Positions 15,574 through 63,160 of a stretch of DNA of 64,000 nucleotides are shown piece after piece. Within the stretch, counting starts at the first letter, position 1. Each line of letters begins with the position of its first letter. The stretch is from Ophelia neglecta (Eukaryota). The notes beneath the pieces are model-generated. The model made no database searches, was not told the DNA's origin, and was given only the letters and a program-made list of their open reading frames with translations. The stretch lies in NCBI GenBank assembly GCA_965285935.1, contig OZ260663.1, forward strand, positions 63,116,001 to 63,180,000, given 5' to 3'. Made by a program: the position numbers and the translations under genes.

Positions 15574-15893
15574 TTAAGCTAGGACAGCCCCTGGTGTCAT
15601 CTCTGTATCATTTTCCTTCCGCAGTTCACTGTAGGTGCTACCATCTGTAGGCTGCTGTTGAACATTAGATTCACCTACATTTGTCTCTTCGTCCATACCC
15701 TCTGCCAGAGAGTCACACAGTTGCCCTCGCTCCACCGGGTGTTGCTGGTTTGTCGACCATTGTTTTGGGTAGGGAGAGCTCCGAGCCTCTCTTCTTGCCT
15801 TTTTTCTTTGTCTGCGCTCTTCTAGCATCATTTGTATGTGCTCTACTTTATCCCGAATTGTTTGGTTCTCTTCTTGAACAAATCCTTGGGATT
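15574..15893 (-). CDS. MIDN: Midnolin last coding exon (C-terminal helix/NLS)
   Basis: TTCTTTGCAG acceptor, phase 1; [42 protein letters not shown]...GAVLA-TAA. Confidence 0.93.
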
Positions 15894-18800: not shown

Positions 18801-21800
18801 ACAATGGAAGTTACATTGTACTAGATAAGTGTCCTATGAAAAGACATACCGGTCATATTCTGGCTGTCTTATTCAGTGTTGTTACATGCCTTCAACCTTA
18901 AGATTTTAACCAATTCAGGTATAATGGGTATAAAGTTTTGGTGCCACCATACCTCAGGGCATATGCATGCGGTTGTCTTATCAGCATATTATTTTATTTG
19001 ACAAATCCCAAAAAGGATATAAAATAAAAATCTGCCATAGTCCTTTAGTCATTTATTGAGTGGAATTTACAGTGAAGTAATAAAGCATAAGTCAGGCCAT
19101 TATGGGATGCATATAGACATGAACAGTGTAAGTCCGTTAAGTGGGAGTTCCTCAAAAGAAGACTGACTACCTTGATTGCCTCAGAAATGAATGATTATAT
19201 TATTCAAATTGAATTAATGACCTTTCATTTTTACCTCCATTATGAGGAGTTCTTTGCTTTTGAGTAATGAATGATACTCTCACCAAATAGGCAGATATTT
19301 GCCGAATATTAACCCCCAACCCCCAAAAAAGTCCAAAATATTCATTTGCTCCATGGATAATTTTTATGAGGAGCCATGAGTCCAGGGTTTTATCTGACAG
19401 CCTTTGATAACTCCCCCCAAGTAATTTTGGACAAAGACCAAAGCATTTAAATAAAATCAAAGCTCAGGAAATAATGGATAGCTAATTGTTTTTGAAGAAC
19501 ATTAGTTATGACATAAGAAATTATGAAAAAATTAGCACAAGTGGCACAAAGTCAAACCTAATTAACTTTAATACCAATACAGAGAAACCCGTGATGAAAG
19601 ACTAGCCAAGATAGTCCTATATGCAAAATGGTTTGCTAAAACTGTGTTTTACCCCAGATATTAGTAAGAGACCACCCTTTGTATAAGACAACTTATTTGT
19701 TAGTCTATCACAAGGGGTTCCACTGTAGTATAGTCTAGAAGCTTTTCTTTTCAAGCCATGCTGGCGTCTGGTCTGTCACGTCTGCTTGCCACAGAATGAT
19801 GTGATTAGATACAAGGTAGCCCGGGTCACAGGTGGGTCAAGCCATAAAAAAGTAACTTAATTTATGTTTCTATGTCATCAGCTTACCACTCTACCATATT
19901 GAAATACATTGAAAATCTCTGAACCAAAATAATCACATTGTGACCTGTTGTTCACAGCGACCCGGGTCACCATGTTTTGAATCACATGTAGTTGTTCAGC
20001 CTGGGTTAAACAGGATCAAATTTTCTGTATGACCCTTTTTTCAAACATGGGTATAAGTTGCAAAACCCAAAACAGTGACTTCAGTTGCATGCAGCATGAT
20101 CAGTCATTCCCTCATGAAGGCATCAATATTCCAATGACAACTTACCATTGTCAGAAAGCGACAGAGGCAGACTCCTGGGTGATTTCTGGTTAGTTCGGTG
20201 TGCAGCACTGTCATGGATCTTATACTGAGGGGATGCACCCAGCAAGTCGTTCAGGATGTGTACCATAGTCGTTATACTTCGCCTGGGCTTTCCATCTCTA
20301 TCTTGTAAAGCTGGATTTAGGGTACCTACAAAAAATATAGAGAAAAATGTTGCTTTTCTTTTACCTTATATATTATAGCAGGACATAATATGGGAATAAT
20401 AAAGGACTATGTAGGTGGTTGAAATCATCCACATCTGAAAGATAAATGATATTAGGAAGAGGTACCCTATGTACCCAAAAGGAGGAGGCCGGAATACTAG
20501 ATAGTGATTCCTTCACTGTCACCAGGGGCAGCGGGAAACAGATCTTACCTTTCACATCTTTCCGGTCGATGTGCCCTATCTTCCCGGCTGTGTAAAAAGA
20601 CAAACATATCGGTGCCCAGAGTGCTCGGGTACCTTGCCCAAGACTGCCAGTCATTTGGATGAAGTTTGTAACTTGGGTAGTTAATAAAATTTATAGCAAA
20701 TAGCCCTAACAACAGCAGTATTGTTTAGGTTAGCTTCGGATAATTTTGCTTCTGATATTTATCAAATTGCTTGTAACTTGGAAGCAAATTGTGAACCTGG
20801 TATATTTACATGTTTGGACGCCCATCAAAATGGACCAGGATTTAATCAAGTCAACTTCTTGTGCAAGCATGCATGTACATGATGTTGTGTTACACTAAGG
20901 TTTTGCACTTGATAAAAGTCAATGCTCCCACAATGAGCCTATTATAATAATACATGCCAATGAGCTGTCTTGAACATCGTAGAAAGTCATGTCTACACCA
21001 TTCATTGAACTATGATATTTAGCAAGGAATGGATGATTCTGATGAAACATAATGTCATCACAGTTTCAATTGTATTTCCATCTGGGAACTCATTATCAGC
21101 AAAGAACTTAAGAATACTCATGAGCTGTGAGGGATCATTAGATGAGAAGATGAATCATAACCTGGCAGTAAAAGCAGGTGGTGTCCCAACAATGAGCCAT
21201 GATGTACATATTTGTTACAGGTGTATAAAAATGAAAACTAATTTTCATTGACAGGTGATTCATTATGCTAAGTGCAAGAATTCTTGCTGTTCTAAGAGTA
21301 TGACATTTTGCTGAATACCAACACATGCATAGTATGAACCCAAATGGGAGTATTGATTGGTAGATCACCATCATCAGTCACTGTCCACAAGTCAGTTACA
21401 TAGTGAAGGGGCACATCTAAAAGCCAGAACTGAAATGTCAATGGCTGCATTATTACACACCAATTCACTGTTGATTATCCCCGTGTATGGTTTTAAAACA
21501 ACTAAGTGCCTGGTGGTTCTGTGACATTCAAAATGTCAATGGAGACTGGTCATAAGAGGCTTTGACATTATTTTTCTTGGTTGGGGTAGAGTATTTTATG
21601 ACAAACAGCTAATGCCAGGCCAGACAAGCATCAAGAACTAGTAGATCTTATACTTGATATGGAAATGGAAAGGGCAACAATTGTTCACAGGCTAGGTTAC
21701 CTCAGGCTACACCCAATAGAACTAGATATGATATGTTGCTAAGCTGATCAACCTAGTCTTTTGTACAGCGTACTTATAATTACTCACTCTTATTACGTAT

Positions 21801-24800
21801 GTATCTCAAAGGGGGGGGGGGGGATAAGTATCAGATAAGTAATATTGTAAGCCACAGAATGACCTAGTTTTATGGCTACCTTGAGGGATAAGAATCAAGC
21901 TTGCTTGATTGCTGGTTTATATCCTTTTAAATAGACATAAACCATGGTTGATTACTCTATACAGTTAGGTAGTATAGAAGTACACACACCTCCTGCTGAT
22001 TCGTCAATACACTTGAGTGATTCTAACCCACTTAGGTCAATATAATACACATGCATGTTGATTTCAACTAATCCTAAACCAGTCATTTATTATATGGAAA
22101 TTAATGGGTTTTAGTGGCATTGAAAACTCATGAAAGCCTTTACCTGAAAAAGTTCCTGAGTACACGCCTTGACCCAAATGATGCATACTCTCTATGATTG
22201 CGCCTGAAGGTCTCATCGAAGCTTCTGTGTTCTGAAATGAAATATACAACATGAATGGTCATGATGAATGATCTTTAATGATCAAGCTTATACCCCTTAG
22301 CATGGTTGTCTTGTTGGGAGATGAGCAATTTACATTTGTGAAATACACCTAGATAATGTTGTGTAAACATTCTTTTAGTAATTCATCCTACTCCTTCATA
22401 TATATAGAAATGTATATAGAATTATTATACATTATGAACTGATTGGTGGATTTGCCCCCATGGCTAGGTCTAACGTATGCATCGCGACAAAAAAAAACCC
22501 CGCTGTTGTGCATTAAATGTTGCACTGCAGCATTTTCACTAGACATGTCGAACGTAAATTTCATATCGCTAAGATAGATATATTTGCATATTAAAAAACT
22601 GCTGCTGTTTCAGCATCATTTAAGGATAGACATCTGTTAGACAATAGTCAATTTCAGACGACAATAACAACAACTGAGCTGTCGCGGCAGTAGGCTGGTC
22701 AATGGCAAGTTATATAGCCCACAATGCTATTTTATGATTGAATAAAAACACACAGATCTAACAGGAGCAATTTTTTATGGACATAAAAAATAGAGCATAG
22801 AATATATTTAATATACGGCGCCAAAGACGCCGTGATTTATGGGCCCAATTGGAACAGTACACTGCAATATACCGTGATCTTAGCCCGGCGTATTCAGCGA
22901 GTATAAACACCGCTCTGAAGAGGTGTCCGGTGGAAACAGGTACTCGGAGCAGACTTTTCTCAGCAAAAGGGGGACCAACTTTTCACACACCAAAGTTACA
23001 TGCACCATTCTGAATTGGCTTGTGCCAACAAATGAGATTGTTGAGTACTCAAAAAGAAAACAGCAATACAAGGACCAGGCAAGCGCTAGTAAACTCTCAT
23101 ACAATGGTCGCGAAAAACAGTTTTTGAAGAAATAATCTTGTTTTATATGCAATGCGATGCTGAGTCATGGCATGTTGGCATTTTACTGACTGACAAGTAT
23201 TGGTCTCAGCGTAACTTTTGGTGCTATGTGTGGGAGCTCGCTGTATGCTCTCTATGCCCCGCCCCCTTCCCTCTTGCATGATGACAAAGTTCTGGTCAGA
23301 TGAAAAGGATAATAGACTAGGTAGGTAACTGTAGTCTATACAGCAGGATCGCAATAAAATCTATGTTGTCTTTTTTATTTATTGCTGGTTTATGAAACTT
23401 GTTCAGAAATAGCCAGGGATACTTTCTTGCTCCACCAGGTTTTTTACAAGTACGAGTGTGTACACCTGTATTCTACAGTACATGTACTTCATTTAATACA
23501 GTTCTCTGAATAGTTGAATGCAATTTGATGTATCATGAAACTTTCTTCTGACCAATTCCTCTATTCAACCTGATGATGAATGACGTCATTAGGACATGCG
23601 CACATCAAAGGAGAGCAACATATTGTGACCTGTGGTGTTAGGTCAGAAAGTGGACTGTTGAATAGATACACCTGACATAGACACACCTGAATGCTTGTTC
23701 AACCCTTAATGACTGCCAAATTCACTGATCTCTGTGACCAGTTATATTTTCATATATATGTACTCAGCATGCCTCTTTTGAGTTTAGTCGTATATGATCA
23801 CCGGTAAAAGAATTTGTTTGACCTTTGGAATAGTGTACAGTTCTAATTCTACAAAGTGGTAATTTAGGTGGATGAACCTTAACCACACTGTTTAAACTAT
23901 TCTCTCATCAGGTTCTTACACCTGAACTAGTTTTCTTGACAGAAGCGGTCACTCACTGTGAAACATGATCTCCCAAAATGCCTACTTGTATTTGCACCTG
24001 ACACCACCTCCACAACATGGTTATTGGGTTTGTAAACAGGGAGATGTTTTATACACATACTGCATTAACTGATTACAAGTAGGGCTGGAAGGGCATGATG
24101 TGTTTAAAAAACACATCTCTTGCAAAGGATGTGGGAACCTGAGGCTAACAAATTCTGATCTCAACCTATGACATTTGTGTTTAGTGAAAGCCTTTGTGTG
24201 GTTTAGGAACTGTTTCACATATCTGCAGATTCTGGGATCCGCCAGTGCATGTGTAAGTGGCCAAGAGCATAGTGCCTGACTTTGAAAAGGTAGAGGCACT
24301 TTGGTCTGCATGCTTCTAAGGAAGCCCTTCACCTCACAGTCTACTCCCAGCAGAAGGTCACAAGTCATTGCGGCCTTGGTAATGGCTCCTTAGTTTGTTT
24401 TCATGGTGAAACAAATGGGATCTCAAACAAGAAATGATGTTCTAGTTAGCAACTGTCTACCAGTAGCTGACACGAGCCATGGATAAAGATTTGGTAGCAA
24501 TAAAAATGGAAAATTAAGGAGGAATTTACCCTTTCCATCTAGGCTTGATGTCATCATTAATGGTTTCTAATAAAGGTCACACATGAGCTTTAGCATTCAC
24601 ATGTATCTGATTTGTAACCAATACAGTGAATAATGCAACTTAGTGATCACTGTGTAGATTTGTGCTGAAGAGTCCCAGTTTTAAGTACATGTATCCCATC
24701 ATTCACCATCACAGACAGAACCTGAGGCCTAGAAGCCCATATAACATACATGATGGTTCATTCATATATATGCAGTACACTGTGTTGCATGTACACACTG

Positions 24801-27800
24801 TACATGTACACACTCTATAGGTTCAAGGGGTCCTTAGAAGTTTGTTGATGTAATCTCAATGAATCAGAGCATTCTAGATTTCTTCAGATTGTTTTCATAG
24901 ATTGTGTGTAAACATATATCACTGTTTAGAATACTGTGCACATTGCTTCAGTTACCTTTAATTTACGGTGAAATTATGCTGTTTTTAAAGCATGGTAAAT
25001 GACTTCATAGAATTTATATGTACATAAGCATAACCCTCCCCCACCCCACCCCCTCCACTCCCACTATGAACTGTATTCATTAATGTTCATGTACAATATA
25101 CATGTACAGCATAGACTCTATTAACCGAACTTCTATTAACCAAATTTCTGGATCAACCGAATCGAATCCATGTCCCCCGAAAATAGCATATAAAATCTAA
25201 AAAATATGATTCCATCATATATTACTTCGGAAACAACAGGTTTAAATCAGGTGTATGTCACAGGTATTTGTATGGTGTTAGCTAATTGCAGTTCGGATGG
25301 GTGCCGCATTCGCACTTCCCGACAGCCTTACATATACAATGTAATCAAAGGCCGTCTACATAATGTGTCTGAGAATCGGCCCTTCTTTGATTAACACTGA
25401 TAGTCTTACGTCTAAGGCCTCCATGGACGACACAACTCACTTAAATCAGTGAACAAAATAACAGTAGAAGTGTCAGAAAGAACTCGCGATAAGCCACGCT
25501 CATGCAGCCTCGTTTTCAAGCTTTTCGGAACCGCCATGTTGGGAAGTATTTTCACGGATCGCATGGGCGAATCTCCAGCAATGTTGTCACTTGTCCCGAA
25601 TATCAGTTGTAAAGAGAACGAACTTTAAGTGGCATAATAATCCTCGTCAAGTATTTGTATGAAGTAAATCTGTAGAAACATTCACTGCTACTACTGCGTA
25701 TGCATTTCCAAGGCATTGTCAGACGGGAACTGAAAAAATGTACACGACCGATCTCCGAAGCTAGCTGATCTTTCAACTAGTATGTTTGTACCGATGAATA
25801 TACATTTACATGTAATTTTATTTTATTTGTCTTGTTTTCTGATAAATTCAGAAATCCATATCTAACTCAACCACAAAACCATATAATATCGTACTGAACT
25901 CCGCTGAATGAAATGGGGTGGGGGGGGGGGGACTCAATCAACCGAAACCCCTGTTAACCGAAGAAAATTGTTGTCCCCGGACGAGTTCGGTTAATTGAGT
26001 CTATGCTGTATGTGTAAACTGGGAATGTTAAAAGAAATCAAAGCATGTGGTCATTGGGTGAACCTGACATAGCAGCAGGTCAGGATGTGGTTTGCCTCAG
26101 AATGCACAAAAAATGTCTCATAATGAGGATGAAAAGTTCCTGCCTATTGAGAAGGTTACCACCATTCTTTCACACTCAGACCTATGGCCTTTCACACTGG
26201 ATTTTATTCATCTGGCCTTCCAACACTAAGCTTTGTAACCAATCAGCATCTTAAATATAAATATGCACTTAAAGTAACCATAAACATGAATGCCTGTTTT
26301 AAAGGCCCCAAAACAAGTGGCTGTTCAGTATTGTAGCCTGGCCATCCACACACAGCTGAATAGCAGTTAAAAGTGAAAGTAAATGAGTAAAAGTTCACAT
26401 GACCTTCCTTATCGGGATGATTATATGAAAAAACCCTGTTTATTCCAAGAGAGGAATCCTATTGCTTATCATATAGCACTATCTGTGTATGTGTGTAAAG
26501 GTAAGGGTTAGCAGGGAGTGGTAGGGAAGATCTTATTTTAAAATCTATACAAGTTTTAATCAGAGGAGTGGGCTTATGAAGCTGGCAATAAACGCAAAAT
26601 GGTATTGTTGTATTTTACCTGTTTAATCTTTCTTCCATCAATAAAATAAACCCAAATCGATTTCAACAATAAAATAAACCCAATAAAATAAACCGAAATT
26701 GATTTCAACAATAAAATAAACCCAAATTGATTTTTCTAACTTTGCAATGACTATTTTGTTCACCAACTATTCCCTCTTCAATAAAACTTTATCTGGTCCT
26801 ATTGATACATTAAAATTGATTTCCAGCTCTTTAGAAATGTAAGCAAAGAAATCAGCTTTGCAAACAACAGGCACATTTTCCCCAGACACCACATGCATTG
26901 AAGTCTCGAACACATCCCACTTGCTTCATCTGTGCCTGGGTGAAGGGCATTAAAGCCTGTAAACATGCAAAGGTGGTTTTTGTTAGACCTGCTAAACCTG
27001 AATATACCACAATTTGCACAGCAAATGTTTACTACAGGCTTACAGGTTCCTGTAGGCTCATAGCTCTAACCAATCAAATAAAGGCTAGAATCGACATATT
27101 TGGAATTAACTTCTTTTTTTTTGGGGGGGGGGGGGGGATTTGACCCAAATATGAAGTCTAATCTTGTACATAACCGGAATTGTTAATGCTATGGTATTCA
27201 AGAAGATTGAACAACATATTATACTTTTTAATTTTGTTGTTGTAAATGATCCCAATAACAGAATATTATTAGATTTCTCTTATATATATTATACTCGTGT
27301 ATATACTCTTCTTTCTGGTTACCCTTGCAATCAAACTATTTTGAGATGTAAGTAAGGTTTGGTATTAAAGCACAATTACATAACTTTTTCTTAAGTACAT
27401 TATGTTCTAGGTTTTTGAAAGTACAAATTTATCTGCCTATGCCAAACATTTTAATAGGTCAAGAAGGCCCTTAGGCTTGGCCATATGTAAGTGCAGTGGC
27501 TAAGGATGCATGCTTCCCTATACAATCCTCTATTGTTGTTCTAGAAAAGATGGATCTATAATATAAAGAACCTGTAGGAGCTAAGCTTCCCATGTAAATT
27601 AGTTTCATATATAAACATTGACTGCAGACTTACCTCTATGGTGCTTTTGGCAGTCGATGATGCCTTCTTGGAGAACTCTTTCAACTTTTGAGACAGGCTT
27701 CGCTTGGCCTCAGCCAGCGTGTTGCTGTCCAGAAAAGTGACAGGAGTAGGGGCGGTAGGCTCTCGTACCACACCACATGGAGGGCTCTGAGAGGGATGTT

Positions 27801-30800
27801 TAGCCCTGACACTCAGAGCTGGGGATTTTCTATGCAAAGGTAGTGTAGGAGACACTGGGGGAGGAGTGGAGGCAACTGTTGGAGATGGGGGAGAAATCAA
27901 CTGGCTGCATTGTCCTGAGGATTCCATGCCTCCTGCAGAAGGACGCTTAGCTTTGCCAGCATTGCGGTTTCCTCCTGATGAAAGTGCAGTTCTTTTAGCG
28001 GGTGTTGATGTAGACAGCTGTAACTGTACTAACATCATGTGCTCTCCTAGCCTCATGGCTAGAGTCAGGGGGGATTTGCCTGTCAGGAAGTCATTCACCT
28101 GGAGAATAAATGCAAGAAATTAATAAAAGTGTTTGTTAAAAGCTTAATTACAATGCCCTTTTCAGGGATTGTAAAGAAACATAATGAAGAGTAAGTATCC
28201 AGCACATCTTAAATTTAAGTAAAAAATAAATCCATTTACCAATAATCAGATTATTAATTATGGACTGGTAGAATACCAAGGATTGTTTCGACTTGCAGGA
28301 ATGTTTTATGAACATATTGCTTTCACTATTCCACTTCCATGGTTGAAATGGGCACAGGTTGCAAAACATATATTCTTAACTACATTTTTATGACTGGAAA
28401 GCTAAGAAGTCTTCATTGTACATATGATTGTATACACAATCTGTGAAAGGTGGATGAATAATGCATTCATTTGCAAAGGGTAAATTGTATGCATTTCATG
28501 TTTAAAGAAGCAAAAACAAGGGTGGATGGTTGGTGGAGCAATGGCAGCTGACATGATTAGACACCAACATGATTAGATAACCCAGCCATCTTTATTAATA
28601 TCAAGCTGGGCTTCAAGTGTGGCCATTGAAACATGACCATATTACAACATGATACTTGCTGTCACAAACAATCTTTGCCTAAACATCCCTAACTTTAAAT
28701 ATTGTACTCATATTTGGGATCTTCCAACTGCACAAATACAGTATGAAAATTATATGGTTACCTTTAACAGGAGTAATGGCCTTCCTGTGCTTAAAAGTGT
28801 TGGAAGAACTTGTCCAAATGAAGTCATCCATGCCACGAACACATGCACTTCATAATAGAGAATCAGCCCCTCTAACTTGCTAGTGCGGAGCATTTTGTTG
28901 TCAAACAGATGTGAACTGTAGCAGACACCCTTTCAATTTCAAAAAGCATGCATGTTTGATTTTTACTGAAACCCAGAAGTAGCGCTGCACAATCTTCCTT
29001 GGAATGATTAAAGAATCTGAATTGTCATCTACATGTAACCACCAAGTTACTTCCAACAAATCATATTAAGCAGTAGTAAAGTTAAACTTGGATGACCGCC
29101 ATTTTGCATCATGTGTTACAATGATCGTTTGACACACTGTTCTACCCATGTACCCAGGAGATAAGATGAAAACCTACATGTAAACATGGAAAATAAAGAC
29201 GCTTGCTAGTTTTATTTCCATAAGAAACTTTGTTAGATTTAAAATGGCAAGTGTACCACAAATAAGTTGGTCACTTGAAGGAAATGATTAAAAAATACCT
29301 TAATGGTATACTTAAATATACATATATGTATATGCAAAGTTGAAAGTGTTTTAGATAAGATGGCAGCATGTTATTATTACTTGCCATTACCACTTGTGTT
29401 AAGTCATCTCACTTATACAGGTACATATACATGTACATGTACATGACAAAAATAAATGCATTCAACTCTGGCTGCACCAATGTATGTCACCATTTAATGA
29501 AATAAGCAAAAACAGCCTCTGCATGTCATGTATAATAAGCTCCATATAGGAACCAGTTATCACTCTGAAGTGGAGGCATTGTAAGATAAAAAGTACATAG
29601 AAATCAAAAGTGTTCTATCTCCATTCATTGTGAGGTCATGCCCTAGGTCACACAAACCACACAAACCAGTCACCTCAAATTGGTTCTCACAGATCATGCC
29701 TCAAGCCCTTCTTGCCTGGCTTGGTGTTGGCGGCTTGTGGTTTCTGTGGTTGGCTGATATACCAAACTTGTTATGTTGCTGTCTCTTTAGGTTAATGATA
29801 CCAAAGTGAGTAATAAAAACCGTACACAAATATTATTTATTTTGCTGCAGTAACTTTTCAAACCCCTTTTTACAATAGGAACTATTCTAGGCATTTGACA
29901 AGTTATATAACCAAACGTATATGATTATACCAATACATAATTGACCAGCACGTAAAATACTCCTAACATTGTCTGTCTGGGATAACCTTAGTATTAGAAA
30001 ACTGCAATTGGATAGGTTGTAATAATCTAAAAAATATTAAAGCGTAGGAAGTGAATTGGATTAACAGAGATTGCTGTTGAGGACATCTACTATATATACT
30101 CCCACGCAGCCTGTGTCAATTGATCTGCTACTGATGGTAGTTGGAGGCTGACCAGTTGGCCGAATTTGCTGAACAAGAATTCTCTCCGCAGACTTGATAG
30201 GAGGCCAAATGCTAGCAGAGATTTAGTGAAGCTTTATCCTTAAGACTTTTAGCTTGCGTGGGTTTCATCTACAGGAATTTATTCCTCTTGTTGTGCTACT
30301 GATTTATTTAGCCGCAGATTAAAAACATGAAGCTTTAGTAGTTTGTTTTTTGTTGTTGTTATAGTAGAGTGCCATTCATTTCTACACTTCTGGTTGCCTG
30401 TGTCCTCAATGACTCTGTGTGGGCGGCTAGTATAAATACCAAACCAGTTAGCTGACAACAACATGGCGAAACCTTACAAACCACAATGAACATTGCTGGT
30501 TGCAGCAGGATTTCTTGTGGTTTGGTTGTACCATTATACAAGTAAAATAGCTAAAGTAGTGAAACTGAATTACAGTGATTTATAACAGTTTCAGAGTTTA
30601 TTGGGAATTTTTGCCTTGTGATTATTTAGCTTCTTTCATTGATACATTGAAATAGCTAGAAATACAGGATATGCATGTAAACATTTCGGCCATGTGCTTT
30701 AAGGCATATACATGCATTTCATTTTGACCATCTTAAACTTAAAAAGAATTGCAAATCCCTACATATACATATTCATTACTAAAGCCTGGTCCACTACAAT

Positions 30801-33800
30801 TTGTACTTTTACTGTAATCACAGTACAAAGTATTTGTTAAATAAAAATATTAAGATTTTCCACATTTGTTCGTCCCAATCTTTGGGAGAGGCTGGCTTCC
30901 CTTTCAAATTTTTATGTAAAGCACAATGTGTTCAATTTAGTAGTAGTTCTGTAGAGGAATATTAGAGATAATGGTGGCACAAATGCTTTTCCAGCCACCA
31001 ATCCTGCAAAATTATTGGAATCTAGTTGTGCATCTTCTGTCACCAGTGAAAGTCACCTAGAGTTCACTGGCTAATTTCGTTGCCCTGCTCCAGTAACAGA
31101 GAAGGTACTCCCAAGGCTCATCTTGCATAATGAGTGCAGTGACTGTATAAACATGCACTAGCTGCCCCATCCAATCAATACTTCACCTTAATTCTGCAAT
31201 CCCACAACCATCCTTTGTTCTGCCAACATTTCTTGACTCTGGATGCATGCTTTCACTAAGCATTAGTTTTCCTGAATGGTAATGTCAGACTATAAAACAC
31301 AATTTAATATGTGGTGTGTTTTGCTTATGTTCTGCAGTATCTGCTGAAGAAATGGAGGAAATGTTAGTGAACCTTTGTCCTCCACCAGGAGAAAGACAAT
31401 GGTTAATATGAGATATACATGTACCTAGTAACATTTCCATCAAACCACTATGAATGTAAATCACCAAGTACAAAGATGACACTTTTGATATAGCTAAGTG
31501 TCCATCATGGCAATGCAAAATAAGTTGAATGTACATAACCAAAATACATACATGTGATATACAAGTTTCTCAAAGTTGTCAGCGGTTTGATAGGTTCAAA
31601 TTTACTTATTGATGATTACATCCAAACCTCGGATCAAATTCAATGCTCCATTGTGAATTCTCCATCAGACTGGGTAAACAGCCGAAGGGAACATGCCAGG
31701 CGGTGAGCCCAGACTCACCCACAGAGAAGGGGATACAAGGCCGTACCGCCCACACAGACGAAATACTCAGCCCAACTGGTCTCATCTGAAAGGACAGGGA
31801 GGTGGGCACAGAATTCTTGCGTGGGAGCAAGATTCAGAACAAGCTGGCCTTTCACCAAGTTTACATCATCATTGGCATCAATCCTTCTCCTGGCATCAAT
31901 TACAAACCCATGTACCAACCTTACAGCATTGTGCTTGCTGTATGATTTTATCCACGATATTCTACATTGTTGACCTACCAAATAACATGCAGGTTCAATG
32001 TAACCAAATGACAAGATTAAACCAGAGAGGCAGCAATGACGTCAGACCATTGCCAAACATGAGACACAAGCTTAGAAATGTCTAAGAAAATCCTTCGAGG
32101 AGATTAGAAAAACTATCATTAACCTCTTAGATGCAAGGATCAAGAACATTGAAATACAAGACCACATTGGTCCCTTTCTTAAGTGGAATCAAAAGCTAGG
32201 GCAATGTTAGTTCCTCTAAGGACAGATATTGGTTGTGTTGAAACTGACCTACAATTATTCGCATACATGTACATGTACAACAAAAGCCACAAATTGCATT
32301 AATTAATAGAACTTGAACTAAATAATCCTTATTATCATTTGCAAGCACTTTTGACTCTAATAACACCCTGGTAATTACTGTAATGAGGCAAGTTGCAAGA
32401 ATTGTTGGGGGCCTGCCTAGTTGGTTGTTCATCCTACTGGAACTAAAAGGGACAAGGGTCACACTGGTACCCTGGATAACAGCCATCCATTAAGGTCAAC
32501 CCTCACTGTTGCTTCTCATATCAGGGACAATGACCTATGAAGAGGGACACCCCTAGATCTGCTGATGAGCCTTACCAATGAGATATGTAGCTTTCCCAAC
32601 TAATGCTAATAACCTTTAAAGGTCTCCAATGACGTAAACGCCATAAAATAAGCCTCCATAAGGAACAAGTAACGTCTGCATTGTATGACATGAGCACTGA
32701 CAACACTGAAGGAGGCTCATGTAGAACTAGTCATCTCACATGTCTGTTAATTGCAGCATTTCATCAGAAAAACCATGTTATTGTGCAACAAAACATTGAA
32801 TAAATGGCAATATAATGAATAATAATAACAGAAAGATATTATTGTTAAACAGCAATTATAAACCTTTACCTAAAATCATTTATTTTTCTCTTCATGTACA
32901 AGATTATATAAAAGTTCTTTGAGACATCATAAAGTTATGACCAAAACATCACAGTTCCAGAAACACCATATTTCTGCTTCCTAATACATCATAGAGGTAT
33001 CTTGTGCTGGGCCAGTTTTATCAGAATAAATCAAGGTTGGAGTCCCTGGACTTCCACTTCCAATCATTACTGGTAGTTTTCTCCAGTTGATGTATGTTTT
33101 ATAATACAATGAATACTGTTGGCAACATGCCTAAGATGAAAAGTTCAATGCTCTATCCTAAATATCCCAAAATAAGCCTATATCTAAATGTGGGCATGTA
33201 AATTGCATTTGACATGAAGACTTGTACCCTTTCTATATGGGACACCCCCTGGTGGTCAGTAAATCCCTTTACTGTTACACCACAAAAGCGTGGCCGAGTG
33301 GTTAGGGTGTCCACCTCGCAAGTGGTGGATCGGGGTTTGAATCCCGATGGTGTCTAACTTTAGACGTAAAAATGGGTACTGATAGTTCCCCTGCCAGGCG
33401 CCCGGTATTTCAGGGGTAGTATCATACCTGGCCAATCCGGTGTCAGAATAATGTGACTGGGTGGGGTTCCCTGTCTGGTGTCTATGGCAGGTACTCCAGT
33501 GAGGCAGCACTCTAAAGAGGCCATTGGGCCCACTGTCACAAGTAGGCACCATGGTTTTAGGACCGATAAGTGTTGAAAGCCACGAAAAACCCCAAACAAC
33601 AACAACCTTTACTGTTACAAAATTCTTATAAAGGTGTCATGGGAATAAAACCAAGCTCACAACTATGTTCTTTAGTAATGTATCAGTCTATGGTAGTGAT
33701 TACTATACTTGGCATGCAAATCATGCAAATTTAAGACACCAGGAGCCACTGAACACCCACTTTTCTCAATATGATCTTGAAAAAGAAACCAAGTAGGGTA

Positions 33801-36800
33801 TGACATAACCTTTACAAACTATTTGCCTGAAACTTAATAGCTGAGTCTTGTGGTGTAAGACAGCTGTAAATGAAGCTGAAATTCACCTACCAGGCATTTT
33901 CACTTGCCCTTGGGCAGTTCCTTATGTAAGTCCTTACATGGGTAAAGTAAAGGTAACCAGTAGATACCTCATATTTAAATTCCTATTAGTTGTCATAACA
34001 TTTGATGGATATATCTTCCTCTATTCAGACAGCAGATGCCCTTGAATACCTGTTTTCTCAATATGATCTAATACAGAGAAGAGCAGGCAATGGCAAATTC
34101 AAGATACCATTAGGCTCCTTATATCCCAGCTCCATTTAGCTGTCAAAACACATGAAGTATCTATCTTGCACCGCCAGACACTGGAAGCCATTAAAAACCC
34201 TTTTCCTCAAAATAACCTTGAGCAAGAGGTCAATGATTAATTACCATACAATATCATATTGTGTTTTGTTGGTTTTTGTCCAATTATTCAGTTTAATATA
34301 CCAACATTTGTAATTTGTGGTCCTGAACCATTGATCCTCAGAGCATTTACATATTGAATTCATTCATGTACATGTACATGCACAAGTACATGACTAGTAA
34401 ATTCCCATGAATGAGCCCATTTTTGCACATACTGTAATGGTAAAATGTTTGCGGTGGTTTAAATTTTTGAATTTCGAGCAGCAGTATGGAAGAAAACTCA
34501 CGATAATAATATTTGCAAGTATGTATAAGACCTACATATCTCTGGCCAGGAAATAAAAATACTCAAGAGTGTCACTTATTCAAAAGTACTATTTAATCCC
34601 ACCAAAATGATTGCCATTAGAGTATAGTGTACTACATTCACCAAGTCTACCTTCACAGCTCATCATAGTGTCAAATTCTTCCATGATGTAGCAGTAGTAA
34701 AGTATGTTTATTGCTATGGGAGTGCCAAGTATTTACTAACTCTGTAGTCAGAATGAGAAAACAGAGCAAATAAAGCCTAGAAAAGACTAATAAAAACGTT
34801 TGAAATGGCAAAAACTTCTGAGCTAATTCATGGCTAATAATATCTAGTTCAGCAGTGAATCAGTTAAGCAATGATAACTATTTGCTACTCTTACTTGTGA
34901 ATCTGTTAAATTCTCCAGGGCCTGAAGTACAGAATGTTCTGGTTTCTGTGCCTGAAAATATATAATGAAAACTTGCATATCTTACGAATAAGTGACATTT
35001 TTACTTCAACATGTAATGAGAACAGTAACTAGGAAAACAAACCAATTTATTTCATATCCAGCATCTTTGTAGAGTAAACTGAGGGAATATACCATGCAAG
35101 CTTAAATGAAAACAGTAAAACTGTCTCAGTATACCATAAACATGAAGTTGTAGAAGTTTGAGCCATGCAATTTGGTTTGAGTAATATACTTGGTTATCTA
35201 ATAATTTTTCTAAGACTAAAATGCTGACTAAATGCATATGATATTTGGACTTTAACCGATATCTGAATTTGAAAAATTATTCTATATGGGAAACACAAAT
35301 ATATAAACCAAAGCAGGTGGTGAGAATGTAAGCTTGCTATTTTATTGTATCAATTACACATCAGTATGATAATATAGTTTTGCAGGATCAAGTATTCACA
35401 AGAGGCCACCCCAAATTTAGTGGAATGTTAAATTTGTAATAATTTAAAAGGTAACTTATAAAGGCACTATTGATATTATTCTTTTCATTTTCATGATATA
35501 CATATCATGTTTGCAAATCTTTTATCCTTTTGCAAACTAAGTGCATGTGAATTATCATGTTTTACATCAAGACACCCGCCCCCATTTATTCTTGTAGTGA
35601 GATCTGATATTAGCCTTATGCCTTCACCTGGAACTAGGTGCACCGATAGCATGTTTTAATTTCCTGGTAAACACATCAGGTACTAACCAAGGAGCACTTG
35701 TTGAACTGAAGTGCAACAAAGCAATGATATACTACAGATCTTAAAGACAGACTATCAGCTTTCTGTCATCTGAAGAACCCTTTGTTCATTCAACATCCTG
35801 TCATTTTACCCATAATCTCACAATAAACATACAAATTATCGCTATAATATTTCTACCCTCCCCCTCCCCCCAGCCAATTAGGTTAGGGAAACCCATACAT
35901 AAAGTAATTAAAACTTTGGACTATCAAAATGCCCTTGGTGGAGCATACTGTCTGTACCAGGAGCTGACCAAAGGCTGGACTATCAAAACACCCTTGACGA
36001 GCTAGACGTCTATACATGGGGCAAACAATATTAAACTAACCATTGCAAGACCAATCCCTTAACATGATTTTATAAACAAATATTGGCAATGCAATGAAAA
36101 AGTAAGTGTATCTTCCTGCACTCTCACATATATATCATATTTTCCACATCCTTTAAACATTTACTTCTTAACAAAGGACCTGCATGGCTTAGCATATGGC
36201 AAGACATTTTAAAGACAATAAGTATATTGGCAAGAGCATTCCAATTGCACACTTTTGTCATAAACGTGCCTAAGAAAGATACTTAAAAGAAAAATTATAT
36301 TAGAAATTAATAATAAGAATTGCCCTCTTTTACTATTCAATAGTGCCAGATATATAGTACAAAAAAAGTTTTGACAAGTTATGAGTTTTCCAGAAAGTAC
36401 CCCCAACAGGGAGCAGGCAGCAGCAGTTTTGGCCATAGGGTTAGAACTTGAACCCACAGAGATGGGAAAGAATAGCATTTTGTGTCTTGGGTCATTGAGA
36501 GCTACCAGTCTGTTGGAATTTTTGCCACCAAGTTACAAATGAAAGTTACATATATCCAATTTATAATTTTTTTTTGGTCTTTGTTTTTCAACACTAAAAT
36601 GTACATCCCCAAACAACAATTTGCAATGAACATTTACAATAACATGTATAAATAATTTGGATATCTTGACTTTTTGCATTTTTGCAATTCCTCCTGCAAA
36701 CAGATGATAATCATTTCAGCAAAATAAGACCTATATGTACATTATACATGTACTATTAATTTCCAAAAAGATTCCACAGATTTTTGTACTGATGAGTATT

Positions 36801-39618
36801 CACATTTTACTTGGTAGGGGCATACCAGGTAGTTCAGATGTGTTTTTTTTCTGTTTGTGAGAGACCTGTGAGTAATACCATTAAAACACAAGTTTGGAAA
36901 GCCCTAATTCAAACCACAATGCAGTATCAATTTGATTTTAAAAAAGCTTGAAAAATGCTGCTAGTTTCAAATGGCTTAATGCAGTCTTACAAGAGTTACA
37001 TATCAATTAGTTTTATCCATTGACAGAGGTGTCTCCCACAGCTTTAGTTTATAGAGTTTTGATAAAGATACTATAGTAACAATACTTACCACAAGTCCAG
37101 TTTCAACATTGGGAAGCAAGGTTATCTTGGAGCCATCAGAAATACCACTCTGTTTTAATAAACCATCCTTCAGCAATCTGAGTAAAATAGGATGATGATC
37201 AGCACAACAAGAAACTCTGGCATAGTAACTTAGAGAGTTGGCATCTTGGAGGGTGCCGAGGCATGGGGGGACATGGCCCTTTCCAAGGTATGGGATGGCT
37301 GTTGGATGAGTGCCTCCTCCCAGAGGCTGGTCTGGCAGCTAATCCCATGTTTAATTCTAAGCCCTAATATCCCCACCTGGGGGGGGGGGGGGGGGGGGAT
37401 AAATGTTTTGGCATGCCATTAATTTCTTGTTCTGGAGACACCTCACAGAAGTTTACAAATAACCAATGCCTTATGGACGTAGGAATTGTAATTGGACGCA
37501 GGATTTAATACTGCATTTAAAATGCTGAAAAAGTAAAATGAAAAATTGAGACCACAGAGGCATAACTAGTTTTGTGTACATTTGATGCTGCTATTAAATG
37601 ACGGATAATATTAATATATATCCGATAAGGAATGGCACATGTGACCGTAAATAATGTTTGTGCAAGATTCAATTCCCTCTTTGGCAAAAAATGACATGTG
37701 TTAATTCCAGGCCTACAAATAGGTTCTTTTAGGCCCCACATCTCCAAGGTAGAGCAGTTTGCGTGCAATTTGCTAATTCAAACCTGCATGAACATTTTTA
37801 CCTTTGCAATTGCTCTAGAAATAGATCAAGCTTTATACAGTTATGGTGGCTTAGATTTAAAGCGAGGTCAATATATGAGAAATACTAGCACAGTCTACAT
37901 AATTATACTATGTTAATAGTGGTCACCATCAGAACAAAGACTGGTGGCATTACATGTATTGGGCTCATACGATCAGGCTCCTGGTCAATGATTTATTGTG
38001 CCAAAGGCTTACTTTGTTTCTTGCCATACAAAGAAATTGAGACACATTATAAGAAAATATGGCATATATTTATACATATTAAATGGCATTATACTTCCAG
38101 CATGATCAGGGAGGCACATATTGACATAGTAATACTATAAGGAAACTACCGAGTATATACTCTAGTAAATAAATAACATTCCAAATAAAGCTGTGAATTA
38201 AAGCCATTATATGATAGACCCATTTATAGGCTAGCATTCTTTGTGTCAGAATTTTATACATGTGGTCATTCCATCATTTCATGATCTTTGCATCAAGAAT
38301 CGTGATGTGAACCTTACCATGTCAATCTGACATTGATAATGAAAATAAACACACACAGTCAGTTAACTAAGGTTGCTTGCCTGATGTGGGCAATGAGATA
38401 ATGTATGGGTGCCTATCAACCATATCCAAAGTCATGTGTACAAAACAATTGAAAAGTGCATATCGATCAAGGACTAGTTCAAATACCAGTAGCAAGAATG
38501 GGATAGTATGGTGGAATAGGATAGAGGTTCAGGATAGTGGGTGGATTTCCAAGAACAGATTGGACTACTTGATGACAACCAGTGGCTGCTGAGCTAACGC
38601 TAACGTTGGCCCCCTCTCTAGCACCCACATTAAACCATCCCACACAAATCCATCCAGGGTAACCTTCGGCTGTGTGGGTAGCTGTGGATTGTGTAGGTGG
38701 TACATGTAGTGTGTATGTTTAGTGAGGTCAAATAACACAAAGCCAGACGCCTGAATAATGTATAGTGAGAACCAGCCAAACGTACATACCAACCCACAAC
38801 AACTGCTAGGTATATACATGGATACCCGCCTACCAGACGACTACTTAGAGATTGAACTTTAAGCATGTATACATTTACCGACAAATGTCTGGGGTTGTTC
38901 ACTAGTTAAAGGAAGGTTCACTGACTTGTGTTGAAAGTATAACACTAGCCAGTGAATCTACATGTAGACATGGTAGATAGTCGTGCAATCTGAAGTTTGA
39001 AAACGTGTCTTCTAGCACCCTCTGAAAACTACCAAACTATGATTAATTCCAGAGCCCTGGACTAGGGCAATCCTTTACAGACTTTCAGTCCTTCATATTC
39101 GTGTTTTTGCCAAGTAAAAACAACTTATTATGTGGTGGATTTTCAATGCTAATAATTTTCAGAGGCGAGACATTGAAATGGGGAAAGAGAATGTCATTGT
39201 CACGGTCCCTGAGTCGGGTCAGGGTACTGACCCATCTTATGGCGTCTAGACGCCGAATCTCCCGCCCAAGCCAATTCGATCTCGTCCCAGGCAGGGATCC
39301 CATAGCGTGACTACGCTCTCACACGCCCCTGCTACATGATAGATTACCATAGCCAAAGCAAAAACAAACAACCCGGCTAACTTACTTCTCTTTGAATAGA
39401 AGGCTTATCCGTTCTTTGGGGATTCTCAGTTTCTTGCCGACTGCTTTCTTTAGGCCATCGACAGTTTCCTTTGAAGAAATTTGCTGGTCAAATTGTCCTC
39501 CGGTGGTTGGGCAGACCTGGACGGTCCAATGGGGAGACATACCAATGGTGACGGCTCTATTGGAATCCAGCCGACGGGACGGGCTACTATCACTTGTACT
39601 AGATTGACGGGAATCCAT
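15574..39618 (-). CDS. MIDN: Midnolin (Stuxnet/MIDN ortholog), complete 7-exon gene, 476 aa
   Basis: Exons 39386-39618, 37090-37177, 34895-34951, 27634-28098, 22144-22231, 20146-20325 and 15574-15893 have GT-AG boundaries with compatible phases (1431 nt). Motifs: Ubl ([49 protein letters not shown]), Catch1 ([41 protein letters not shown]), Catch2 ([43 protein letters not shown]), C-terminal helix/NLS ([34 protein letters not shown]). Confidence 0.95.
16165..16172. promoter_or_regulatory. Perfect CRE palindrome TGACGTCA (midnolin intron 6)
   Basis: Exact motif; ACGTCA half site and CACGTG within 100 bp. Function untested. Confidence 0.35.
17678..17910 (-). CDS. Candidate alternative (terminal or cassette) exon in midnolin intron 6
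   Basis: Acceptor CCCTTTCTCTGTCTATAG in phase 1; open reading GLPSSIPH...GKPR...[20 protein letters not shown]; possible weak in-frame donor AAG|GTCATC at 17701/17700. Confidence 0.45.
19580..19725. mobile_element. Short pogo/Tigger-like MITE
   Basis: TA|CAGAGAAACCCGTGAT ... ATCACAAGGGGTTCCACTG|TA. Confidence 0.5.
20146..20325 (-). CDS. MIDN: Midnolin exon 6 (Catch2 second part)
   Basis: TTTTTTGTAG acceptor; [35 protein letters not shown]...; ATG|GTAAGT donor. Confidence 0.94.
20549..20587 (-). CDS. Candidate 39-nt in-frame cassette exon in midnolin intron 5
   Basis: Acceptor TTTGTCTTTTTACACAG, donor AAG|GTAAGA; phase 1-1, no stop, adds [13 protein letters not shown]. Confidence 0.6.
22144..22231 (-). 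CDS. MIDN: Midnolin exon 5 (Catch2 first part)
   Basis: [29 protein letters not shown](G); CAG|GTAAAG donor. Confidence 0.94.
22420..23360. mobile_element. Probable non-autonomous transposon insertion (CpG-rich island in intron 4)
   Basis: Abrupt CpG-rich block in a CpG-poor intron; starts with ...ACTGATTGGT and ends ...GCAATAAA; class and ends uncertain. Confidence 0.35.
23579..23590. promoter_or_regulatory. Extended CRE palindrome AATGACGTCATT (midnolin intron 4)
   Basis: Exact 12-bp palindrome containing TGACGTCA. Function untested. Confidence 0.35.
25107..26008. mobile_element. Tc1/mariner (pogo-like) non-autonomous element, 902 bp
   Basis: 25-bp TIRs CAGCATAGACTC(T/A)ATTAACCGAACT (24/25 match), TA TSD, subterminal AACCGAA repeats, CpG-rich interior. 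Confidence 0.9.
26638..26735 (+). repeat. Short tandem repeat of CAATAAAATAAACCCAAATYGATTTCAA
   Basis: About 3.5 copies seen directly. Confidence 0.8.
27634..28098 (-). CDS. MIDN: Midnolin exon 4 (Catch1 plus S/P-rich linker)
   Basis: [28 protein letters not shown]...STAKSTIE; GAG|GTAAGT donor. Confidence 0.95.
31719..31785 (-). other. Candidate 67-nt frameshifting (poison) cassette exon in midnolin intron 3
   Basis: Acceptor CCTCCCTGTCCTTTCAG, donor TGG|GTGAGT, GC/CpG-rich island; inclusion gives a stop (GGT GAA TGA) at the start of exon 4. Confidence 0.6.
32037..32044. promoter_or_regulatory. Perfect CRE palindrome TGACGTCA (midnolin intron 3)
   Basis: Exact motif; TGACGTAA variant at 32630-32637. 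Function untested. Confidence 0.35.
33280..33605 (+). mobile_element. Full-length tRNA-derived SINE (Meta-domain-like body)
   Basis: A box TGGCCGAGTGG, B box GGTTTGAATCCC, (CAA)n tail, 14-bp TSD CCTTTACTGTTACA at 33266-33279 and 33606-33619; central GTCAGAATAATGTGACTGGGTGG...CAGTGAGGCAGCACT resembles the MetaSINE core (recalled). Confidence 0.9.
34433..34623. mobile_element. Old Tc1/mariner-type MITE
   Basis: TA|CTGTAATGGTAA ... TTGCCATTAGAG|TA imperfect TIRs. Confidence 0.45.
34895..34951 (-). CDS. MIDN: Midnolin exon 3
   Basis: TTTTCAG acceptor; [19 protein letters not shown]; GTAAGA donor. Confidence 0.93.
37090..37177 (-). CDS. MIDN: Midnolin exon 2 (Ubl C-half)
   Basis: TTTTACTCAG acceptor; [29 protein letters not shown]; GTAAGT donor. 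Not in the ORF track. Confidence 0.93.
39386..39618 (-). CDS. MIDN: Midnolin coding exon 1 (Ubl N-half)
   Basis: ATG 39618, MDSRQSS...[13 protein letters not shown], phase-2 donor GTAAGT. Confidence 0.92.
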
Positions 39619-61385: not shown

Positions 61386-62386
61386 ACTGATTGGCAGCCC
61401 CACAAGGGTACATGTATACCGTATAAAACTGTCGATTAGATAGTCGCCTAGGCCCTACGACTCAGTAAAGTGAGAAATGTCAATAGCACGTAAAAACACG
61501 GTCCACTCATGATTTTCCCACCTCACTCCAATGATAAAAATTCAGGAGACCACCTCGACGTTGAGAATAGGCGTACTGAAATATAAAGTAATAACTTGTT
61601 GTAGGAGTCAAACCACTTTAATATGTCTTCAGGTGATCGTGCATGCCGAACGATTTGTCTGTTTGCACACATTAATTGAATTGTGTTGATTATAACTGTG
61701 CAGTAGCACGTGTTTTGGCGTAAAGCGCATTTAATCATTTTTCAAACGACATCAAACATTACATCCAGCAAGAAAGTTTGTTCGTTTGGGGTCTTTTTGT
61801 CAAATGACGTTTCGAGAGGGACTCTTCTAGAATGCCCAGACGTATAGTTTTTCACCTGCTCTGTTGCTATCGACAAGTTCACTGACCTTGGATACAACAA
61901 AAAGACCGGGGCTTCTTATAAAGGGAGCCAATCCAGGGCAAGATGACTGTGTTGTCGTGCTACAATTGCCCATGTAGCGCTTAACATATTATATGTATTA
62001 TATGTAAATTATATTACTATGTAAATGTATATAAGTATACATATAAAATTATAATACTGACAAGGGATAGTCCAACTAAGATATACAATAGATCCCTAGC
62101 ATGGCGCCATCGTACTGGTGCAAGTGTAGCAAACGCCGGGAAGCCTAAGCCCGGACATTGGCCCAATGCTTCGGAGTATGTGGGTATACGTATGAGCTTA
62201 TAACACAAGTGTCTGTCTTGTTATGATATATTATTATTAACTTATGTTTTAGGTACTCTGAATGACGTACCATGATATCGTCAACAACAATTCGAATTTA
62301 TCATATTTAGCTGTGCATTATCGATTGAGTGCTGTTCGGTGGACCATTCGGTGACGCCAAGAGGTCCCGTCTCATATTGGAATACG

Positions 62387-62840
62387 ATGCCACAAAGAAA
62401 TGACCCCTGTAAACGACTAAGTCAGGCGTTCACTGAAGGCGATACCAAAGTGATATGTCACACAATTCAACAGTTCCACCATGTAGTGAATACTAGAGAC
62501 GAAAGCCACGGACTGCAAACCCCTCTGATGCGAGTTTGTCATCTACGAGTGGACCAAGCAGAAAGAGAGATCATTCTTAATCTGATAGGTAAAACCTGTC
62601 CGGATTCTAACATACGCGATGGAGCAGGAAGAACTGCGTTGTGTCACGCGTGTATATCGGAGAAAACCGAGGTAGTGACCTTCTTGTCCCGTCTTGGCAA
62701 CTGTGACCCTAACATTGCCGATGATGACGGGAACACACCTCTTATCTACGCAACAAAATCTAGGAAATTGAGCGTTGTGCAGACTTTACTTTCAAGTTTC
62801 AAAGACATCGGCTTGGATGTCAACCACAGAAATGAACGAG
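62387..62840 (+). CDS. Ankyrin-repeat protein, ANKRD63-like; first coding exon (no further exon found in this window)
   Basis: ATG 62387; ankyrin repeats TPLMRVC / D.GRTALCHAC / DPNIADDDGNTPLIYA; ...SFKDIGLDVNHRNERG resembles ANKRD63 SFRRLGLRLDRTNRAG (recalled); donor GAG|GTAAGC after 62840; likely acceptor TTTTAG ending at 62252. Confidence 0.85.
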
Positions 62841-63160
62841 GTAAGCTCTCTGTCTTTAGAGAATCTCGGCCACGGCTTATCGTAGTAGACCATGCAATGA
62901 ACCTTATTGCCAAAGAATTCGATTTAAGATAAAAATGCATACATTTGCCAATTAACTTACAAATATTCGACATCCTCTTTTTGACAACTCGCGAATGTGA
63001 CATCCAGAACGAGAAATTCAGAACGAGTCAATAATTATTGATGCATGAATAGCTATTGGTGGTAAACACGAATAGTGAGTCCCTTGGCTGCCAAGTCTCC
63101 TGGACCATATTTGAATAAGACCCGGGGAAAATATACATGCACTTAGAGACCGGGGAAGGT

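What the first reader, a model, noticed from the sequence alone, without database searches (positions are those of the whole stretch)
31719..31785. 67-nt poison cassette exon between midnolin exons 3 and 4
Seen: pyrimidine-rich acceptor CCTCCCTGTCCTTTCAG and consensus donor G|GTGAGT. Inclusion reads [22 protein letters not shown] then G-E-stop within the first 8 nt of exon 4, more than 400 nt upstream of the next junction, which fits the NMD rule. A weaker internal donor (GCG|GTACGG) would give an in-frame 39-nt version. From memory, mammalian MIDN has an alternative insertion at this same ETQ|VSDFL junction, which would make it an ancient regulatory site; that needs verifying. A perfect CRE lies about 250 bp away.
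Basis: partly seen in the sequence, partly recalled or inferred. Interest (0 to 1): 0.7.

Follow-up and report, generated by a model that had tools for sequence, protein, structure and literature searches.

The report
Hairpin-masked pseudo-exon in midnolin intron
An intron of an invertebrate midnolin gene holds a single-copy, GC-rich island with an exon-shaped 67-base piece that would wreck the message if spliced in, but both of its ends are predicted to be folded away, so it is likely skipped, and the island could equally be a small nucleolar RNA.

Summary
The sequence is as described: an AG/GT-bounded 67-nt piece (31785-31719, minus strand) in intron 3 of a 476-aa midnolin most like annelid and brachiopod proteins. 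Inclusion gives a stop 457 nt before the next junction. It is single copy and not a transposon. That it is ever spliced is not shown: no RNA run was listed.

Under a T-rich acceptor matrix (the form of this gene's real acceptors) the splice pair is matched 2 times in sense and 3 times in antisense intron DNA. No branch-point motif lies within 60 nt, and both splice sites fold into stems. The mouse insertion in Catch1 is in frame (43 aa), and MIDN is absent from a human NMD-event table. Eleven orthologous intron stretches from distant animals show no likeness. The 'ancient switch' claim is therefore unsupported.

New here: the island is framed by a perfect box C and a box D. The D box has an 11-bp antisense element to this animal's 28S, at the SNORD87 target but one base off. 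The odds are pseudo-exon 0.42, regulated poison exon 0.25, box C/D RNA 0.25, internal first exon 0.08. The scan had no earlier midnolin note.

The parts
39386..39618 (-). midnolin coding exon 1 (start codon, most of the ubiquitin-like domain)
   Evidence: Pfam ubiquitin E 8e-5, below cut-off
37090..37177 (-). coding exon 2
34895..34951 (-). coding exon 3 (first helix of Catch1), phase-0 donor
33279..33606 (.). high-copy, tRNA-headed SINE-like repeat in the same intron; unrelated to the cassette
   Evidence: depth above 100,000; weak tRNA hit 33284-33355, below gathering score
32037..32044 (.). perfect CRE; two more at 23581 and 16165, all three in midnolin introns
   Evidence: 3 found, 0.42 expected, 0 of 100 shuffles reach 3
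31660..31859 (.). single-copy GC-rich island (GC 0.56)
31866..31872 (-). perfect box C motif ATGATGA, preceded by CCA that can pair with TGG after the box D motif (3-bp terminal stem)
   Evidence: this motif alone occurs at chance rate, 26 found and 26.4 expected
31786..31803 (-). candidate acceptor; C-rich tract, no branch motif within 60 nt; CAG|ATGAGA lies in a predicted 9-bp stem with 31763-31755
31719..31785 (-). 67-nt candidate cassette (frame-shifting if included)
   Evidence: inclusion not shown
31741..31749 (-). weaker internal donor (39-nt in-frame version), predicted paired with 31704-31698
31702..31719 (-). main donor G|GTGAGT with an adjacent complement (7-bp hairpin, 4-nt loop); in longer folds the donor is instead inside a 54-nt stem-loop
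31672..31682 (-). 11-nt antisense element to this animal's 28S (positions 2506-2516 of L020's 28S; a second option at 2119-2129), one G-U pair each
31665..31668 (-). box D motif CTGA, 204 nt from box C
31636..31644 (-). 9-nt complement of 28S 2490-2498, next to the first target; lies outside the C-D span
   Evidence: 48 of 2344 random intron 60-mers do as well
27634..28098 (-). coding exon 4 (rest of Catch1 and linker); premature stop at 28093-28091 if the 67-nt piece is included
22144..22231 (-). coding exon 5
20146..20325 (-). coding exon 6
15574..15893 (-). last coding exon (C-terminal helix, stop)

Best explanation
The 67-nt piece has exon-like ends and would put a premature stop into midnolin mRNA, but it is likely a pseudo-exon that the spliceosome normally skips, because both splice sites are predicted to be buried in hairpins and no branch-point motif lies within 60 nt. 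Shown: the boundaries, the frame shift, the stop position, single copy number, the missing branch motif and the atypical acceptor. Inferred: the folding, the skipping, and that any rare leak-through is cleared by NMD as noise and not as a switch. The regulatory load of this long intron is likely transcriptional (CRE-type enhancer elements acting on an inducible gene), with the splice-like pair a by-product of a GC-rich stretch.
For: The splice pair is at background level under the T-rich matrix: 2 sense and 3 antisense pairs as good in 22.6 kb. By summed score with uniform background, 13 sense and 11 antisense pairs are as good. The acceptor differs from 6 of 6 real acceptors, and TNAY is absent where 6 of 6 real acceptors have it. 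Donor opening energy is 10.45 kcal/mol, rank 9 of 308 donor-like sites. 31790-31694 folds into two hairpins that cover the acceptor and both donors, z -2.17, 5 of 200 shuffles (boundaries chosen after looking). 210 of 214 measurable homologous proteins have no insertion at this junction. The 4 that do are low-quality, hypothetical or unnamed gene models, and none of 287 proteins holds the cassette peptide motifs. None of the 11 orthologous intron stretches with hits examined, of 12 compared, resembles the island, and a covariance model of it finds only itself in the window plus 16 loci. All 3 perfect CREs of the window lie in midnolin introns. Two related animals (L003, L004) keep a CRE-half/ETS-like motif and an AP-1 motif in this intron, with no AG/GT pair scoring 6 or more in L003. 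Rat Midn is induced by forskolin and NGF (PMC5517452, passages).
Against: The pair sits inside the most GC-rich unique 200 nt of the intron, and only 0.2-0.7% of island shuffles give a pair as good. It is the top pair of intron 3 under both matrices. Regulated exons also have weak branch points and masking hairpins (recalled), so those features do not exclude use. Protein collections cannot show NMD isoforms well, and all orthologous introns available are from distant animals, so their silence is weak. This reading leaves the GC content and the box C/D features as coincidences. The CRE lies 180 nt outside the island.
Confidence: 0.42

Rival explanations
1. A regulated poison cassette exon. Melting or remodelling of the hairpins lets U1 bind the main donor. 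The 67 nt are included, the frame shifts and NMD removes the mRNA, capping the level of an inducible degradation adaptor. The internal donor would instead add 13 aa inside Catch1.
For: Top AG/GT pair of intron 3, in a GC island that extends about 60-75 nt on both sides. 7-21 of 3000 shuffles do as well. The stop is 457 nt before the next junction. A 6-bp complement beside the donor occurs in 6 of 167 minus-strand donor-like sites and 9 of 500 flank shuffles. The intron position is shared with vertebrate-like and other loci, and this intron is the longest visible in 4 of 4 genes where it is complete (window, L004, L010, L012). Mouse has alternative splicing inside Catch1 (PMC11022886).
Against: No branch motif and an atypical acceptor. 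Background-level score with the T-rich matrix. The mouse event is in frame. MIDN is not in the human NMD table. There is no paper with both 'MIDN' and 'poison exon'. No stop lies inside the cassette itself.
Confidence: 0.25
2. The island is the body of a long (about 205 nt) intron-encoded box C/D RNA. It is released from the spliced intron, closed by the C/D kink-turn and carries internal hairpins. Its D-box antisense element guides 2'-O-methylation, or chaperones folding, of 28S just upstream of helix 69. The splice-like sites are then accidental parts of its hairpins.
For: Perfect box C at one edge of the island and box D at the other, with a 3-bp stem. There is an 11-bp duplex with the animal's own 28S next to box D, extending to 14 of 15 pairs, -22.9 kcal/mol, rank 5 of 209 CTGA sites in the gene span, 6 of 150 shuffles. 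Of 14 such guide-bearing CTGA sites among 491 in the window, only this one has a perfect box C upstream. Box C plus guide-bearing box D arises in 87 of 20000 shuffles of the region, and with the stem in 29. The element nearly repeats the guide of the Rfam SNORD87 consensus. A second 9-bp match to the adjacent 28S stretch resembles extra base-pairing (PMC3116282, PMC8053127, passages).
Against: At window scale 0.73 such C-plus-guide-D cases (0.23 with stem) are expected and 1 is seen. The guide-plus-CTGA pattern occurs 8 times in the genome against 17 for the reversed control. The D+5 rule points one base upstream of the SNORD87 site. That site (human Gm3744) is listed only for human, mouse and Xenopus, not for fly, yeast, Arabidopsis or Dictyostelium (PMC11014333 Table S4 rows). 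No Rfam family reaches gathering score. No convincing C'/D' pair was found. The second match lies outside the C-D span. The whole island folds no better than shuffles (z -0.75). There is no such element in the orthologous introns. The idea was formed after looking at the sequence.
Confidence: 0.25
3. An internal first exon. A CRE-driven promoter in intron 3 starts a transcript that splices from one of the two donors to exon 4. With the internal donor the ATG at 31785 is in frame and gives a midnolin lacking the ubiquitin-like domain and half of Catch1.
For: The cassette begins with ATG, and the 39-nt version is in frame. A CRE lies 252 nt upstream. It needs no acceptor or branch point. Mouse has annotated isoforms without the UBL domain (401 and 358 aa; PMC11022886).
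Against: The in-frame donor is the weaker one (5.2 vs 8.5 bits). No homologous protein starts with such a peptide. There is no promoter evidence.
Confidence: 0.08

Closest known systems
Midnolin (MIDN; UBL + Catch1/Catch2 + C-terminal helix; PMC10617673, passages; PDB 9mbo, 8vqp)
   Same: The host gene has the same domain order and Catch1 sequence, with an intron at the same phase-0 place inside Catch1 as in a vertebrate-like locus (L016).
   Different: Invertebrate gene, best matches 43-45% identity to annelid and brachiopod proteins.
Mouse Midn 508-aa vs 465-aa isoforms (PMC11022886, figure legend passage)
   Same: Alternative sequence inside Catch1, by inference in the same intron (the only one inside Catch1).
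   Different: In frame, 43 aa, protein-coding. No sequence likeness could be tested because no protein with the insert was retrieved. The exact junction is recalled, not read.
Poison cassette exons such as those of SRSF3 and HNRNPL (rows in PMC7347940 supplement)
   Same: Inclusion would place a stop more than 50 nt before a later junction.
   Different: Inclusion, NMD sensitivity and conservation are not shown. The host is not a splicing factor, and human MIDN is not in that table.
SNORD87 (Rfam RF00439; guide for human 28S Gm3744)
   Same: Antisense element to the same 28S stretch, followed by AG and a CTGA box.
   Different: One extra base before the box; the guide sits at the far end of a 204-nt C-D span, not at D' of an 85-nt RNA; no Rfam match.
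SNORD86 in NOP56 pre-mRNA (described in review PMC8162545, passage; primary paper not read)
   Same: An intronic box C/D element whose folding could restrict a nearby splice site.
   Different: Here the splice sites lie inside the C-D span, the host is not a snoRNP protein, and nothing is shown experimentally.

Membership tests
midnolin (host gene) | UBL domain, Catch1, Catch2 and C-terminal helix in one open frame | tested here: met
   476 aa from 7 exons without stops
poison cassette exon | AG and GT boundaries inside an intron | tested here: met
poison cassette exon | inclusion creates a stop more than 50-55 nt upstream of a later junction | tested here: met
   457 nt
poison cassette exon | splice signals above intronic background, with a branch point | tested here: inconclusive
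   matrix-dependent; no TNAY within 60 nt
poison cassette exon | inclusion seen in RNA and raised by NMD block | not testable with these tools
   only DNA-type contigs could be laid
poison cassette exon | exon and flanks conserved in relatives | tested here: inconclusive
   no match in distant animals; no close relative available
box C/D snoRNA | box C near the 5' end, box D near the 3' end, terminal stem | tested here: met
   stem only 3 bp; span 204 nt, longer than usual (recalled)
box C/D snoRNA | 10-21 nt antisense element next to D or D' | tested here: met
   11 bp with one G-U to own 28S; 14 of 491 CTGA sites do this by chance
box C/D snoRNA | D+5 nucleotide is a methylated site | tested here: inconclusive
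   D+5 is one base from human Gm3744; no methylation map for this animal
box C/D snoRNA | discrete RNA bound by fibrillarin | not testable with these tools
   needs small-RNA data or immunoprecipitation
SNORD87 (RF00439) | match to the covariance model at gathering score | tested here: not met
transposon fragment | multiple genomic copies | tested here: not met
   1 match in the assembly; flat single-copy depth at 80% likeness

The most novel reading that the evidence does not exclude
The island is a cis-acting box C/D element with a poison exon built into it. SnoRNP assembly on the nascent intron (or its absence) chooses between the fold that hides both donors and a fold that frees one, so midnolin mRNA survival is tied to snoRNP supply. 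This would be a SNORD86-like switch on a ubiquitin-independent degradation adaptor, in an invertebrate, with a guide related to a site so far listed only for vertebrates.
Probability: 0.07. Interest if true: 0.8.

Novelty: new member of a known kind. Interest (0 to 1): 0.35.

Why it matters
[quoted passage not shown] I found no paper describing a splicing brake on it. A real poison exon would be the first such brake, and a real box C/D RNA would make midnolin a snoRNA host. If it is a pseudo-exon the finding is ordinary. One RT-PCR with and without NMD block and one small-RNA blot would separate the three readings.

Tried and rejected
No RNA holder was listed for the stretch. The three listed runs are DNA-type contigs of one sample, possibly the assembly's source. 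They give copy number only; no variant fell inside 31637-33200, too few variants overall to show constraint.

An exact 22-nt scan of metagenome contigs across the acceptor gave 0 hits. A search for truncated UBL-plus-helix proteins with a new tail found 14 hits, none of that form. There is no midnolin paralogue in the genome. The four ORFs overlapping the island have no Pfam family near cut-off. No protein-atlas result was obtained for them.

Transposon was rejected. miRNA and H/ACA RNA had no Rfam support. Guides to U1, U2, U4, U5, U6, 5.8S and 18S gave only 7-9 bp chance-level matches, including a 9-bp match to U6 41-49 just before the donor. A paralogue of the box C/D candidate was not found among 36 other loci, where only the guide itself aligns; a structure-based search of the whole genome is still open. 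The best SNORD87 model hits in the genome are all below cut-off.

The prokaryotic promoter scan was irrelevant. PMC13507809, PMC13172543, PMC12088389 and PMC11529416 (passages) gave nothing on this junction. The figure showing mouse isoform structure and bioRxiv supplements could not be seen and may bear on the mammalian event. In one search the exon-6 donor was placed one base off and is left out of the comparison.

Full report
Gene and observation. The minus strand carries a seven-exon midnolin of 476 aa. Exon 4 matches the Catch region of human midnolin structures, and the best named homologues are annelid and brachiopod proteins at 43-45%. No paralogue was found. Intron 3 (6796 nt) is the longest intron. 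The piece lies in the most GC-rich 200 nt of the intron. It is single copy in the 762-Mb assembly and in three DNA contig sets laid at 80% likeness. A high-copy SINE-like repeat lies 1.5 kb away.

Is the splice pair special? With a recalled mammal-like matrix it is the only pair this good in 22.6 kb of intron. With a recalled T-rich matrix it is matched by one other sense pair and three antisense pairs, and by summed score by 13 sense and 11 antisense pairs. The gene's six real acceptors are T-rich while this one is C-rich. All six have a TNAY motif within 60 nt and this one has none. In its favour, only 7-21 of 3000 shuffles of the island give a pair as good (thresholds set after the fact).

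Structure. The main donor has a complement four bases downstream that forms a 7-bp hairpin. In longer folds both donors lie in a 54-nt stem-loop and the acceptor in a second stem. Opening the main donor costs 10.45 kcal/mol, rank 9 of 308 donor-like sites and matched by 27 of 500 flank shuffles. Five real donors cost 0.6-6.7. The 97-nt core has z -2.17 and the 231-nt region z -0.75.

Is it ancient? The intron position is old: genomic loci from many animals have an acceptor at the same codon, and the intron is the longest visible in the 4 genes where it is complete. Nothing like the island was found in 12 orthologous intron stretches, 3 of them complete, by covariance model in 16 loci, or by exact scan. 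All these animals are distant, so the test is weak. Of 214 homologous proteins where the junction could be measured, 210 have no insertion. The four exceptions are low-quality, hypothetical or unnamed models; 73 further proteins could not be measured by the pattern. Mouse has 508- and 465-aa isoforms that differ inside Catch1 (PMC11022886, passages), an in-frame event. Human MIDN is absent from the NMD-event table of PMC7347940 (supplement searched). No held paper contains both 'MIDN' and 'poison exon'.

Transcriptional reading. All three perfect CREs of the window lie in midnolin introns (0.42 expected). Two related animals keep three blocks in this intron, with a CRE-half/ETS-like motif and an AP-1 motif (motif names recalled), but L003 has no AG/GT pair scoring 6 or more. 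Rat Midn is induced by NGF and forskolin (PMC5517452, passages). The CRE is therefore more simply part of an intronic enhancer than of the cassette.

Box C/D reading, found here. A perfect box C (31872-31866) and a CTGA (31668-31665) frame the island with a 3-bp stem. The 11 nt before the D box pair with this animal's 28S at 2506-2516, and alternatively at 2119-2129. They nearly repeat the guide of the Rfam SNORD87 consensus, with one extra base before the box. Controls in favour: 14 of 491 CTGA sites carry such a guide and only this one has a box C, and 29-87 of 20000 regional shuffles reproduce the arrangement. Controls against: 0.2-0.7 cases are expected per shuffled window, and the guide-plus-box pattern occurs 8 times genome-wide against 17 for the control. 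The D+5 base is one off from human Gm3744, a site listed only for human, mouse and frog (PMC11014333, Table S4 rows). Targeting at position 6 is known, but only from D' guides (PMC8053127, passages). No Rfam family passes. At the scale of the island this signal is about as unlikely by chance as the splice pair; neither is compelling at window scale. A precedent for a box C/D element that restricts a host splice site is SNORD86 in NOP56 (review PMC8162545, passage).

Verdict. I put a skipped, structure-masked pseudo-exon in an enhancer-bearing intron at 0.42, a regulated poison exon at 0.25, a long box C/D RNA at 0.25 and an internal first exon at 0.08. These odds are judgement, not computed posteriors.

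Noticed in passing
window 16165, 23581, 32037: All three perfect CRE palindromes of the 64-kb window lie in midnolin introns (0.42 expected, 0 of 100 shuffles); a TTACGTCA variant lies at about 32638-32631.
   Followed up: partly
L012:3445-3810 (orthologous intron 3), also L013, L017: A block of about 350 nt is 98% identical between L012 and L017, against 80-92% elsewhere in the intron, and folds well (z -2.84, 0 of 100 shuffles). No Rfam match. It could be a structured RNA, an alternative exon or a nested gene.
   Followed up: partly
L003:33-186, 618-822, 939-1082; L004 intron 3: Three conserved blocks in midnolin intron 3 of two related animals, holding TGCGTCACTTCC and TGACTCA motifs; GCGTCACTT also occurs in the vertebrate-like locus L016.
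   Followed up: partly
window 33279-33606: Very high-copy tRNA-headed SINE-like element in intron 3.
   Followed up: no
window 37524-37377 and 20587-20549 (minus): Two other AG/GT pairs in midnolin introns score as well as or better than the cassette under the T-rich matrix: 148 nt in intron 1 (overlapping a repeat-like stretch of raised depth) and 39 nt, in frame, in intron 5.
   Followed up: no
L027:1528-1556 and L047 (own genome, contigs C8 and C5): Two unlinked places share about 29 nt that include the same 28S-complementary element followed by TTGA/TGATCATTTTAG; neither has a clear box C, and there is no longer homology. L027 lies in an intron of an EGF-repeat gene.
   Followed up: partly
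P0203 (Ciona savignyi model): Carries a 43-aa insertion at this junction, the same length as the mouse isoform difference; it looks like intron read-through, possibly a gene-model artefact.
   Followed up: no
L006:238-1962: Midnolin coding sequence without introns on a 7.8-kb contig: a transcript or a retrocopy.
   Followed up: no
window about 1600-3200 (minus) and 62276-62929 (plus): Exons of a U2A'-like (SNRPA1) gene and an ankyrin-repeat-like ORF, named from recall of the translations.
   Followed up: no
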